A DNA stretch of 33,990 nucleotides. Origin: a virus. Shown in pieces: positions 2,303 to 3,311 of the stretch. Numbering within the stretch: position 1 is the first letter of the stretch; each line of letters begins with the position of its first letter. The notes under the pieces were generated by a model. That model ran no database searches. It was given only the letters and a program-made list of their open reading frames with translations, and was not told the origin of the DNA. The translations under genes were made by a program, and so were the position numbers. The stretch lies in the UHGV virus genome UHGV-0171993; one strand, given 5' to 3'.

Positions 2303-2374
2303 GAGTGACTAGGCGGGAGAGTAATCTCCCGCCACCTCTGATGTGTCAGGCATCCTCAACGCACCCGCACTTAA

Positions 2375-2396
2375 CCCGCTTCGGCGGGTTTTTTCA
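2375..2396 (+). terminator. Rho-independent terminator (3' end of hok transcript)
   Basis: cccgc-ttcg-gcggg hairpin followed by TTTTTT. Confidence 0.65.
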
Positions 2397-2514
2397 CGTA
2401 CTGTGGTTGTGAATACGATTGGTATTAGGCTATGCTAACAACATTAGCCTGACTAATTTTGTATTGACTTGATTTTTTGTTAAAGAACAGGACGGAGAAG
2501 TAAGGGTACACCCA

Positions 2515-2694
2515 ATGAGCTACGCACTAAAAAAACACCCGCGATTGACTATTCCCCCTCGCGATAAAAGCGTTGTGGCAGCTCCGCGCCCGGCTATTGA
2601 TGAAAATTGCACACATCGTGAGCAGGTGAAAAATGCTTTCGATTTCGGTTTTTCTCGTTACGAGAAGGCAATGGAAGAACTTTCAAAAGTGTAA
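2515..2694 (+). CDS. Small protein (59 aa) immediately upstream of the Doc-family toxin; putative cognate antitoxin
   Basis: ORF ATG 2515 to TAA 2692-2694, ends 18 nt before the toxin start; below ORF-track cutoff; no resemblance to Phd that I can see. Confidence 0.4.
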   Translation: MSYALKKHPRLTIPPRDKSVVAAPRPAIDENCTHREQVKNAFDFGFSRYEKAMEELSKV

Positions 2695-2712
2695 TAATGG
2701 GTATTGTGCTCT

Positions 2713-3198
2713 ATGGCTGAGATTGTTGAAGGAGTGCACTATCTTTCGGTTGATGATCTTACTGAAATCAATCGCCTTTTAATTGAGCTTCAAACACCAG
2801 ATGAACCTGTAGGTGTGCTGAGTGTTGATAATTTAAGTTCTTCTCAGGCCCGTCCCAGCATAGTTCGATGGTATGAACAGATCAATGACATGTTTGTACT
2901 GGCATCGGTATTGATTGAAAGTCTGATTCAGAATCATCCGTTTGCTAATGCGAACAAACGAACAGCTATGATGGCTGGTTACGTCTTCTTGTTGTTGAAT
3001 GGCTATGAGTTAACAGCACCAGGCGATGAAATCGTGGAAATGGCAGAGGGACTGGCCTGCAAAACCTATACTCGAGAAGATCTCGAGAACTGGTTGTGTT
3101 ATTGGTCTCGTGCGTATGACAGCCGGGAATTATGTAAAACAGGCGCAACTATTGTTTTGTATGAAACTATCAAGCTTAAAATAGAACAGCAAAACTAA
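2713..3198 (+). CDS. Doc/Fic family protein (death-on-curing-like toxin)
   Basis: Fic/Doc active-site signature HPFANANKRTA (HxFx[DN][AG]NKR); true ATG at 2713 (track start 2704 is TTG). Confidence 0.7.
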   Translation: MAEIVEGVHYLSVDDLTEINRLLIELQTPDEPVGVLSVDNLSSSQARPSIVRWYEQINDMFVLASVLIESLIQNHPFANANKRTAMMAGYVFLLLNGYELTAPGDEIVEMAEGLACKTYTREDLENWLCYWSRAYDSRELCKTGATIVLYETIKLKIEQQN

Positions 3199-3216
3199 AG
3201 GTGCTTCCAATGAAAA

Positions 3217-3236
3217 CCCGCTTCGGCGGGTTTTTT
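3217..3236 (+). terminator. Rho-independent terminator
   Basis: cccgc-ttcg-gcggg hairpin + TTTTTT; sequence identical to the terminator at 2375-2396. Confidence 0.65.
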
Positions 3237-3311
3237 GTTTTACGTATTCTGGTTTACAATCCACAGGCCAGCCTGAACAACTGGCACCTGCTGCGCCAGC
3301 AGAGAAAACCG

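What the first reader, a model, noticed from the sequence alone, without database searches (positions are those of the whole stretch)
2370..3240. Doc-type toxin cassette bracketed by two identical 22-bp terminators
The sequence aacccgcttcggcgggtttttt occurs identically at 2374-2396 (after hok) and 3215-3236 (after the Doc-family gene). The roughly 840 bp between them contain exactly the small partner ORF plus the Doc-family toxin. Identical terminators at both boundaries are the signature of a moron inserted by recombination at a shared terminator module, and they insulate the cassette transcriptionally.
Basis: seen in the sequence. Interest (0 to 1): 0.55.

Follow-up and report, generated by a model that had tools for sequence, protein, structure and literature searches.

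The report
Doc toxin moron between twin terminators
A small toxin-antitoxin gene pair has been slotted in directly behind the hok killer gene of a lambda-like prophage, with the same very common 22-base transcription stop signal on each side; this is an ordinary phage add-on ("moron"), and it shows a shared terminator serving as the seam where such add-ons are gained, swapped and lost.

Summary
The repeat is real. AACCCGCTTCGGCGGGTTTTTT occurs exactly twice, at 2373-2394 (3' end of the hok mRNA) and 3215-3236 (16 nt after the Doc stop codon). The 820 bp between hold a leader, a 59-aa partner ORF and a 161-aa Doc/Fic toxin, at 40-42% GC against 50-59% in the flanks.

Empty sites exist. E. coli UMNF18 has one copy with the same flanks, and 2687 of 5426 complete E. 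coli genomes match that empty arrangement; 125 carry the cassette.

The right copy is kept in 59 of 60 sampled genomes while the DNA after it switches among six unrelated sequences. Five of these also follow hok's single terminator directly. The length of the T-run follows the downstream context, so the joint lies inside the terminator.

The moron reading is therefore supported, with caveats:
- The 22-mer is generic, found in at least 79 unrelated bacterial and 94 unrelated viral contexts, so identity alone proves little.
- A few relatives lack one copy.
- Other cargo in the same slot (rem, an AT-rich filler) join without a second terminator.
- Insulation of transcription is inferred, not tested.

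This is a new member of a known kind, of low to moderate interest.

The parts
1978..2152 (+). hok/sok regulatory region: 5' part of the hok mRNA, region of overlap with the sok antisense RNA
   Evidence: Rfam RF01794 sok, 118.1 bits against a gathering score of 59, E 9e-28.
2147..2302 (+). hok toxin CDS (51 aa). The overlapping mok-like reading frame starts at 2090.
   Evidence: Pfam HOK_GEF 1.1e-22. ORF list. Annotated as HokD in related E. coli loci.
2349..2368 (+). fbi-like element at the 3' end of the hok mRNA, complementary to the mRNA 5' end near 1978-1990
   Evidence: Complementarity read directly from the sequence. The role is inferred from published hok mRNA biology, recalled from memory. 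The stretch is conserved in hok loci and served as an anchor.
2373..2394 (+). Left copy of the 22-bp intrinsic terminator; the terminator of the hok mRNA
   Evidence: Exact match. Hairpin of -12.6 kcal/mol followed by U6. It is the only copy in genomes that lack the cassette.
2395..2514 (+). Cassette leader (type i). Promoter candidates are TGgTATTAG at 2420-2428 and TTGTGA (2407-2412), 18 nt, TATGCT (2431-2436). An operator-like inverted repeat is AGGCTA 2427-2432 / TAGCCT 2445-2450.
   Evidence: Read from the sequence. The TGGTATTA motif followed by an inverted repeat recurs in cassettes only 72-78% identical at protein level. The consensus promoter scan found nothing on the + strand, so the promoter is inferred only. 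Two other leader types exist in relatives.
2515..2694 (+). 59-aa partner ORF, the presumed antitoxin, of unclassified family
   Evidence: PHROG 2208 (unknown function) 2.7e-42. No Pfam, NCBIfam, PADLOC or PDB match. It lies directly upstream of Doc in all 80 related loci, at 63-100% identity.
2713..3198 (+). Doc-family (Fic fold) toxin, 161 aa, with the motif HPFANANKR
   Evidence: Pfam Fic 5.8e-11. NCBIfam TIGR01550 DOC_P1 1.4e-36. PHROG 577 Doc-like toxin 8.6e-50. PDB Doc chains 9vzc 1.6e-13 and 3k33 1.9e-5.
3215..3236 (+). Right copy of the 22-bp intrinsic terminator; ends the Doc operon and forms the mosaic joint to downstream DNA
   Evidence: Exact match. Called by the terminator scan. 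Hairpin of -15.8 kcal/mol followed by U6. Alignments reach through it in 59 of 60 sampled E. coli genomes and it is present in 49 of 49 close IMG/VR loci. The downstream DNA changes immediately after it.
3237..5359 (+). Downstream context 'X1': an 89-aa ORF (3315-3584, PHROG 1212), a DUF968 gene (3586-4635), RusA (4645-5019) and the Q antiterminator (5000-5359). These are the genes that both terminators shield from read-through.
   Evidence: Pfam DUF968 9e-74, RusA 2e-15, Phage_antitermQ 2.9e-45. PHROG 1212. In the empty-site genomes L001 and L339 the same DNA follows the single terminator.

Best explanation
The 842-bp unit is a moron: a self-contained type II toxin-antitoxin transcription unit. 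It consists of a leader with a promoter-like -10 and an operator-like inverted repeat, a 59-aa partner ORF, a 161-aa Doc-family toxin and an intrinsic terminator. It occupies the hypervariable slot directly behind the hok/sok locus of lambda-like prophages, in the rightward early operon about 1.8 kb upstream of the Q antiterminator gene.

The left 22-mer is the terminator that makes the 3' end of the hok mRNA. The right 22-mer ends the Doc operon. Genomes without the cassette carry exactly one copy between the same flanks.

Shown: the joint between the cassette and its neighbours falls inside this terminator, and the cassette is joined through it to several alternative downstream modules that also occur directly behind hok.

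Inferred: the cassette is gained, passed between prophages and lost by rare recombination within this short shared sequence. Gain into a naive prophage would be the donor's right copy crossing with the recipient's single copy. Loss would be left copy crossing with right copy. Host or phage recombinases would work here at about the lower limit of homology they can use.

Also inferred: in the lysogen the two terminators end the constitutively made hok and Doc transcripts, so that they do not run into each other or on towards Q.

The 22-mer is a generic, many-times-invented terminator, so its identity at both ends is a permissive condition for this exchange and not proof of it.
For: Empty site:
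- UMNF18 (L001) has one 22-mer, and it aligns to both window copies: window 1974-2394 to L001 3008-3428, and window 3215-5003 to L001 3407-5192.
- The flanks are 99.2% and 98.0% identical over 250 bp on each side.

Frequencies in 5426 complete E. coli genomes:
- The empty hok-T-X1 arrangement is matched at 80% coverage or more in 2687.
- The cassette is present in 125, never on a plasmid.
- 95 have the contiguous hok-T-cassette junction of the window type.

The right copy as a joint:
- Alignments reach through it in 59 of 60 sampled genomes, and it is present in 49 of 49 close IMG/VR loci.
- Six unrelated sequences start right after it.
- Five of them (X1, X1v, X2, X3, X6) also follow hok's single terminator.
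- The T-run is TTTTG with X1v and TTTTTTG with X1, X2, X3 and X6, in empty and occupied loci alike. The switch point is therefore within the 20 bases AACCCGCTTCGGCGGGTTTT.
- L247 is 98.4% identical to the window from 1643 to 3239, that is to 3 nt past the right copy, and then diverges completely.

Moron features:
- G+C is 0.40-0.42 against 0.50-0.59 in the flanks.
- The content is a complete toxin-antitoxin pair.
- There is a canonical hairpin plus U6.
- The TGGTATTA motif plus inverted repeat is conserved in distant cassettes.

A second, unrelated cargo (a 130-aa lipoprotein-like ORF) sits in the same slot with the same terminator-cargo-terminator layout. This is seen in L407, L411 and 55 IMG/VR loci.

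The published definition of a moron includes its own promoter and terminator and deviant G+C (PMC3594210).
Against: - The exact 22-mer is widespread in unrelated DNA. Of 121 instances in bacterial genomes there are at least 79 unrelated contexts; of 121 in viral contigs at least 94. Two independent terminators could therefore be identical by convergence.
- Distant Doc cassettes in a quite different slot (tape-measure to tail gene M) also end with the exact 22-mer, or with variants carrying compensatory stem changes. One such phage has a further exact copy after another moron. The right copy may therefore simply be the kind of terminator these morons tend to have.
- 22 bp is below the roughly 30 bp quoted as minimal homology for RecA- and Red-dependent recombination (PMC2327257).
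- Other cargo in the same slot (rem, an AT-rich filler, the X3 segment in L247, and A34's right end) join at scattered positions 20-70 nt past the terminator with no second copy. Illegitimate joints are therefore also common here.
- The two copies mutate independently, with no sign of homogenisation.
- The consensus scan found no promoter.
- Termination, expression and toxicity are all untested.
Confidence: 0.7

Rival explanations
1. Two independent terminators that happen to be identical. The cassette arrived by illegitimate recombination and brought its own terminator. hok already had one. Both converged on the same optimal C(UUCG)G hairpin. Joints cluster at the terminator only because selection removes joints that break genes or terminators. 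The 22-bp identity plays no mechanistic part.
For: - The 22-mer is polyphyletic and very common.
- Its information content is low. By argument, not measurement: the second arm is fixed by the first, the loop by stability, and the flanks by the need for A and U tracts.
- Doc relatives elsewhere end with the same or a covarying hairpin.
- Non-terminator joints are frequent in the same slot.
- The 22 bp fall short of the quoted minimal homology.
Against: - The same cassette is joined at the same nucleotide-level position to six downstream modules, five of which also exist in the empty form.
- The T-run variant goes with the downstream module and not with the cassette. An intact imported terminator should carry its own T-run.
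- A second, unrelated cargo shows the same bracket.
Confidence: 0.25
2. The occupied state is the older one in this prophage lineage. The many 'empty' sites are products of precise deletion between the two direct repeats, not of insertion.
For: - Direct repeats flanking 820 bp are a classic substrate for deletion.
- Empty and occupied forms exist for five downstream contexts.
- The left copy is decayed in several occupied loci: L006, L247, L262, L292, L293 and A34.
Against: - Empty sites outnumber occupied ones about 20 to 1 (2687 against 125 genomes).
- The cassette's G+C is about 10 points below its flanks.
- hok with a single terminator is followed by at least 13 different sequences, most of them never seen with the cassette.
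- Deletion probably does occur, but it cannot be the main origin of the empty sites.
Confidence: 0.1
3. The unit is a small mobile element, and the 22-bp repeats are a target-site duplication or the recombination sites of a site-specific system, comparable to a transposon or integron cassette.
For: Direct repeats flank a discrete insert, and cassette-like arrays occur in the slot.
Against: - No transposase, integrase or terminal inverted repeats are present. The only ORFs are the partner and Doc.
- The repeat has the same sequence at every site and is the resident terminator of hok.
- 22 bp is far longer than usual target duplications.
- The repeat occurs in hundreds of unrelated contexts without the cassette.
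Confidence: 0.02

Closest known systems
Morons of lambdoid phages (first defined in HK97 and HK022; reviewed in 'The moron comes of age', PMC3594210)
   Same: An extra, independent transcription unit that is absent from close relatives at the same site. It has deviant G+C and its own terminator and (presumed) promoter, and carries a lysogen-expressed accessory function.
   Different: Both boundaries here carry the same 22-bp terminator, because the insert lies right behind another small terminated unit (hok). The slot is in the early-right (nin) region rather than the tail operon, although 72-78% identical relatives of this cassette do sit between the tape-measure and tail M genes.
Phd-Doc toxin-antitoxin system of phage P1
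   Same: A Doc-family Fic-fold toxin with the H-x-F-x-(D/N)-(A/G)-N-K-R motif (here HPFANANKR), preceded by a small partner ORF in one operon. It matches DOC_P1 and PDB Doc chains.
   Different: The 59-aa partner has no detectable similarity to Phd/YefM or to any Pfam, NCBIfam or PDB entry. The toxin is 161 aa, against 126 aa for the P1 Doc chain 3k33. The system lies in an integrated lambdoid prophage and is not found on any E. coli plasmid in the collection.
hok/sok-type type I toxin-antitoxin loci of prophages (hokD of Qin; hokW-sokW of Sp5, PMC8621323)
   Same: The left neighbour is such a locus. Its mRNA ends in the left copy of the terminator.
   Different: In Stx2-phage hokW-type loci the sequence diverges before the terminator, and a different 3' end is used.
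Short conserved 'boundary' sequences at module joints, and relaxed or short-homology recombination as the source of phage mosaicism (PMC2327257, PMC3945230; the boundary-sequence idea is recalled from memory)
   Same: A short sequence shared by otherwise unrelated modules lies exactly at the mosaic joints.
   Different: Here the shared sequence is a functional, generic terminator of only 22 bp, below the homology length those studies consider efficient. Whether it causes the exchange is not shown.
Integron gene cassettes
   Same: Promoter-proximal arrays of small cargo units, each ending in an imperfect palindrome.
   Different: There is no integrase and no attC architecture, the cargo has its own promoter, and recombination is presumably general and not site-specific.

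Membership tests
Moron (phage accessory transcription unit) | Present in some genomes and precisely absent at the same site in close relatives | tested here: met
   The single-terminator empty site in UMNF18 has 98-99% identical flanks. 2687 genomes match the empty arrangement and 125 are occupied.
Moron (phage accessory transcription unit) | Own transcription terminator | tested here: met
   Predicted only: G+C hairpin plus U6, -15.8 kcal/mol, called by the scan. Retained in 59 of 60 sampled genomes.
Moron (phage accessory transcription unit) | Own promoter, active in the repressed prophage | tested here: inconclusive
   There was no + strand hit in the consensus scan. A TGGTATTA motif plus inverted repeat is conserved in distant cassettes. 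Three different leaders exist. Expression cannot be tested here.
Moron (phage accessory transcription unit) | Base composition differs from neighbours | tested here: met
   G+C is 0.40-0.42 inside against 0.50-0.59 on both sides.
Phd/Doc type II toxin-antitoxin system | Doc-family Fic-fold toxin with the HxFx(D/N)(A/G)NKR motif | tested here: met
   Pfam Fic, NCBIfam DOC_P1 at 125 bits against a cut-off of 38.65, PDB Doc chains. The motif HPFANANKR is read from the translation.
Phd/Doc type II toxin-antitoxin system | Antitoxin of the Phd/YefM family | tested here: not met
   The 59-aa partner has no Pfam, NCBIfam, PADLOC or PDB match. Its only hit is PHROG 2208, of unknown function.
Phd/Doc type II toxin-antitoxin system | Small partner gene immediately upstream and co-inherited with the toxin | tested here: met
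   There is an 18-nt gap between the genes. The partner was found upstream of Doc in all 80 related loci.
Phd/Doc type II toxin-antitoxin system | Toxicity of Doc and its neutralisation by the partner | not testable with these tools
   Needs expression experiments.
Intrinsic (Rho-independent) terminator | G+C-rich stem-loop followed directly by a U-tract on the transcribed strand | tested here: met
   CCCGC-UUCG-GCGGG followed by U6 at both copies. Distant relatives keep the hairpin through compensatory changes (CCCAC...GTGGG).
Intrinsic (Rho-independent) terminator | Transcripts actually end there | not testable with these tools
   Needs 3'-end mapping in a lysogen.
Transposon or insertion sequence with target-site duplication | Transposase or integrase gene, terminal inverted repeats, and a target duplication that differs between sites | tested here: not met
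   There are only two ORFs, neither a recombinase. There are no terminal inverted repeats. The flanking repeat is the same everywhere and pre-exists in empty sites.
hok/sok type I toxin-antitoxin locus (left neighbour) | Hok peptide gene, sok/mok region, and an mRNA ending in a fold-back element plus terminator | tested here: met
   HOK_GEF 1e-22. Rfam sok 118 bits. The 2349-2368 stretch complementary to the 5' end, followed by the hairpin, was read from the sequence.

The most novel reading that the evidence does not exclude
The 22-bp terminator is not just a passive boundary. It works as a portable recombination joint: a generic hairpin shared by many morons and moron slots (behind hok, before tail gene M, before tail gene K). 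It would let phage or host recombinases, or template switching at the hairpin, move terminator-bounded cassettes (the Doc pair, the lipoprotein ORF) in and out of slots and between otherwise unrelated phages. That would be an integrase-free, integron-like cassette exchange built on transcription terminators.
Probability: 0.2. Interest if true: 0.5.

Novelty: new member of a known kind. Interest (0 to 1): 0.25.

Why it matters
The locus is a clean, well-populated natural example of how lambdoid prophages stack small addiction or defence modules. Here hok/sok is followed by a Doc pair; in O104:H4 a RelE-type pair follows as well; and a Kiwa system lies a little further on. The modules are gained and lost at a gene-boundary element.

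If the shared terminator really drives the exchange, it would give a concrete and testable instance of the old linker-sequence explanation of phage mosaicism. It would also mean that common terminators double as recombination sites.

Practically:
- The cassette is present in 125 of 5426 complete E. coli genomes, including O104:H4, O157:H7 and O121 strains.
- It carries a Doc partner protein of an unclassified family.
- Both terminators sit upstream of the late-gene activator Q, where read-through from constitutively expressed morons would matter.

Tried and rejected
- **Repeat longer than 22 bp.** Local alignment of the 40 nt after each copy gives at best 11 of 13 bases, P about 0.03 before correction for multiple tests. 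The second leader type shows no significant match to its own downstream context. I did not rely on this.
- **Transposon, target duplication or integron cassette.** There is no recombinase and no terminal inverted repeats, and the repeat pre-exists in empty sites.
- **Homogenisation of the two copies.** Variants at the left and right copies are independent across loci, so there is no support.
- **Consensus promoter scan of the leader.** Nothing was found on the + strand. The single minus-strand hit is below the chance expectation.
- **Rfam.** The two sub-threshold rsmX hits (25 and 32 bits against a gathering score of 56) merely reflect the hairpins.
- **GenBank phage records.** No close copy of the cassette was found. 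The best protein identity is 58-63%, in Pseudomonas and Salmonella phages, so comparisons had to rest on prophages in genomes and on IMG/VR.
- **How common the 22-mer is among terminators.** I tried to estimate this from the fetched loci. That sample is centred on hok and Doc and is biased, so it was not used.
- **Does the terminator travel with the cassette?** In the tail-operon relatives the exact 22-mer is separated from the homologous Doc coding DNA by non-homologous sequence and by a different proximal terminator. Common descent of that copy therefore cannot be claimed.
- **Literature.** Four full-text searches found no description of this hok-Doc arrangement.
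Full report
**1. The observation**

The 22-mer AACCCGCTTCGGCGGGTTTTTT is present exactly twice in the window, at 2373-2394 and 3215-3236 on the + strand. There are no other copies even with three mismatches, and no shuffle of the window reproduces two copies.

Each copy is a textbook intrinsic terminator: a CCCGC/GCGGG stem, a UUCG loop, extension by A:U pairs and six U residues. Predicted stabilities are -12.6 and -15.8 kcal/mol.

The left copy belongs to a hok/sok locus:
- The Hok CDS lies at 2147-2302 (Pfam HOK_GEF 1e-22).
- The Rfam sok region lies at 1978-2152 (118 bits).
- The terminator lies 4 nt after a stretch (2349-2368) complementary to the mRNA 5' end. From published hok biology (my recollection) this is the fold-back element of the full-length hok mRNA.

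The 820 bp between the copies contain:
- a 120-nt leader;
- a 59-aa ORF (2515-2694);
- an 18-nt gap;
- a 161-aa Doc-family ORF (2713-3198), supported by Pfam Fic, NCBIfam DOC_P1 1.4e-36, PHROG 577 'Doc-like toxin' and PDB Doc chains, with the motif HPFANANKR.

The interval has 40-42% G+C against 50-59% on both sides.

**2. Empty sites and frequencies**

E. coli UMNF18 has hok, one copy of the 22-mer and then the window's right-hand flank. In a pairwise BLAST its single copy is used by both alignments: window 1974-2394 and window 3215-5003. The 250 bp on either side are 99.2% and 98.0% identical to the window.

| Probe in 5426 complete E. coli genomes | Genomes |
|---|---|
| Empty arrangement, at least 80% coverage | 2687 |
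| Cassette present (chromosomal only) | 125 |
| Contiguous hok-terminator-cassette junction of the window type | 95 |

No GenBank phage record carries a close copy of the cassette.

**3. The terminator as a joint**

The right copy is almost always present:
- In 59 of 60 sampled cassette-bearing genomes the alignment runs through it. Only strain A34 stops short and has a decayed remnant instead.
- All 49 close cassettes recovered from IMG/VR have it, within two mismatches.

Immediately after its T-run the DNA switches among six unrelated sequences:

| Context | What follows the right copy | Also found directly behind hok's single terminator? |
|---|---|---|
| X1 / X1v | 89-aa ORF and DUF968 gene (the window has X1) | yes |
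| X2 | 'gtagttgattagc' | yes |
| X3 | 'gttgtttattttcgg' | yes |
| X4 | 'attttaatgg', leading to DUF1367 | not in my sample |
| X5 | O104:H4 context with a RelE/HTH pair | not in my sample |
| X6 | 'gttgcgtgctgaat' | yes |

A survey of 80 hok loci shows that hok's single terminator is followed by at least 13 alternative sequences, including X1, X1v, X2, X3 and X6.

The T-run variant (TTTTG with X1v; TTTTTTG with X1, X2, X3 and X6) goes with the downstream context in empty and occupied loci alike. The switch point therefore lies within the first 20 bases of the 22-mer.

L247 is 98.4% identical to the window from 1643 up to 3 nt past the right copy, and then diverges completely. The window thus looks like an L247-type hok-plus-cassette joined, at the terminator, to a UMNF18-type downstream region.

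The cassette is itself mosaic. There are three different leaders, and the 5' and 3' halves of Doc differ independently between loci.

**4. Why identity alone is weak evidence**

Exact-match scans found the 22-mer in Pseudomonas, Variovorax, Nitrosospira, many Enterobacteriaceae and a wide range of viral contigs.

| Collection (capped sample) | Instances | Unrelated contexts, at least |
|---|---|---|
| Bacterial genomes | 121 | 79 |
| Viral contigs | 121 | 94 |

Contexts were clustered by 150-nt flanks. Only 6 of the viral instances belong to the hok/Doc locus: five follow hok, and the sixth is the right-hand copy in L196, which the flank classifier labelled 'other'.

The sequence carries little information. 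One arm dictates the other, the loop is the extra-stable UUCG, and the flanks are A and U runs. This is an argument, not a measurement.

Doc cassettes that are 72-78% identical at protein level sit in a different slot, between the tape-measure and tail M genes. They also end with the exact 22-mer, or with hairpins carrying compensatory stem changes such as CCCAC...GTGGG. In L298 a further exact copy follows another moron 2 kb away.

Relatives lacking one of the two copies also exist: A34 lacks the right copy, and L257, L259 and L294 lack hok and the left copy.

**5. Other cargo in the slot**

A 130-aa lipoprotein-like ORF occupies the same position, with a slightly truncated left terminator and an intact right one followed by X1v. 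This is seen in E. coli LH85-a, in phage vB_EcoM-606R7 and in 55 IMG/VR loci. It is a second, independent terminator-cargo-terminator unit.

By contrast, several other inserts join the X1 sequence at scattered points 20-70 nt past the terminator, with no second copy:
- rem, the arrangement of the E. coli K-12 Qin prophage (that attribution is my recollection; the loci examined were L408 and L410);
- an AT-rich filler;
- the X3 segment in L247;
- A34's right end.

Both terminator-located and ordinary illegitimate joints therefore occur in this slot.

**6. Mechanism**

Shown:
- There is an insertion/deletion polymorphism bounded by the terminator.
- The joint lies within the terminator.
- The same joint is re-used with several partners.
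- The cassette has deviant composition and is a complete Doc pair.

Inferred:
- Exchange happens by recombination within the 22 bp. This is about or below the roughly 30 bp quoted as minimal for RecA- and Red-dependent recombination (PMC2327257). Such events would therefore be rare, though adequate over evolutionary time.
- Loss happens by recombination between the two direct copies.

Also inferred is the transcriptional role. All genes here point rightward towards Q (5000-5359, Pfam Phage_antitermQ 2.9e-45). In a lysogen the terminators would end the hok and Doc transcripts before they reach each other or Q. During lytic growth, antiterminated polymerase would read through; this rests on established lambda biology and was not tested.

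The promoter is only a candidate: TGgTATTAG at 2420-2428, followed by the inverted repeat 2427-2432 / 2445-2450. That architecture recurs in distant cassettes, but the consensus scan found nothing.

The main rival is that the two terminators are independent, convergent copies, with selection alone placing joints at gene boundaries. I rate it at about 0.25. The linkage between T-run and context, and the repeated re-use of the joint, argue against it.

**7. Comparison with known systems and verdict**

The unit meets the tested criteria of a moron (PMC3594210), except that promoter activity remains open.

The toxin is a member of the Doc family. The partner fails the Phd/YefM test and is unclassified (PHROG 2208), so the pair works like Phd-Doc but is not a full member of that family.

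It is not a transposon or an integron cassette.

My four full-text searches found no description of this hok-Doc arrangement. The kind of thing is nevertheless well known.

Verdict:
- Novelty: a new member of a known kind.
- Interest: 0.25.
- The most novel reading still open is that generic terminators act as recombination joints for integrase-free cassette exchange. I give it probability about 0.2, and interest about 0.5 if true.

Noticed in passing
window 5381-6792, minus strand: A two-gene Kiwa anti-phage defence system lies directly after the Q antiterminator gene, in a 31-37% G+C island. KwaB is 5381-6265 (PADLOC 1.4e-149) and KwaA is 6271-6792 (1.9e-83). It is another moron-like insert on the opposite strand.
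   Followed up: partly
window 2515-2694: The 59-aa partner of Doc has no Pfam, NCBIfam, PADLOC or PDB relative. Its only hit is PHROG 2208 (unknown function). It is nevertheless found upstream of Doc in all 80 related loci, down to 63% identity. It is a candidate unclassified Doc antitoxin family.
   Followed up: partly
L407 702-1390; L411; L412-L466: A different cargo, a 130-aa lipoprotein-like ORF (MKKLVLVAGVMIATVMLGGCAAK...), sits in the same slot behind hok. It is bracketed by a truncated left terminator (…GGCGTTTTTT) and an intact right one. Among 70 IMG/VR loci, 55 show this bracket.
   Followed up: partly
L354-L362 (for example L355, about 1727-1790): In hok loci followed by the X3 context, the terminator carries a 23-nt insertion in its loop (AACCCGC-ccatcgctgtgatctctcagcgt-TTCGGCGGGTTTTTT). 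The origin and effect are unknown.
   Followed up: no
L298 1940-5600: A Doc cassette 76% identical at protein level is a moron between the tape-measure and tail M genes. It has its own proximal terminator (ATCCGCTAAGAGGCGGTTTTT) and then the exact 22-mer before gene M. A second exact copy at 5546 follows a 249-aa ORF between tail genes L and K.
   Followed up: partly
L005 2255-3932 (E. coli O104:H4): Three toxin-antitoxin modules lie in a row: hokD, the Doc cassette, and, starting right after the right terminator on the opposite strand, an HTH protein plus a RelE/ParE-family toxin.
   Followed up: no
window 2695-3198, compared with L002-L006 and L247-L292: The cassette is internally mosaic. 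Identity of the 5' half of Doc (89-99%) and of its 3' half (87-99.6%) to the window varies independently between loci. Three unrelated leaders precede the same coding pair.
   Followed up: partly
L002 4300-4390 (E. coli A34): A34 carries the cassette, with a mutated left terminator (AACCTGCTTCGGCGGTTTTTTT). A short remnant (…CATTCCGGCG…) stands in place of the right terminator. It was the only such case among 60 sampled genomes.
   Followed up: partly
window 7448-8816: A DNA methylase gene (7448-8494, Pfam N6_N4_Mtase 1.8e-44) is followed by tRNA-Thr (8663-8736) and tRNA-Gly (8742-8816), upstream of a lysis cluster (about 9378-10415). No ORF of Shiga-toxin A-subunit size follows the tRNAs, but the small ORFs there were not compared with any family.
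   Followed up: no
L247 3527-4022; L004 3341-3860: In some cassette-bearing prophages a further segment of about 495 bp (X3, with a 264-nt ORF) lies between the right terminator and the 89-aa ORF. The slot can therefore hold several cargo units in series.
   Followed up: no
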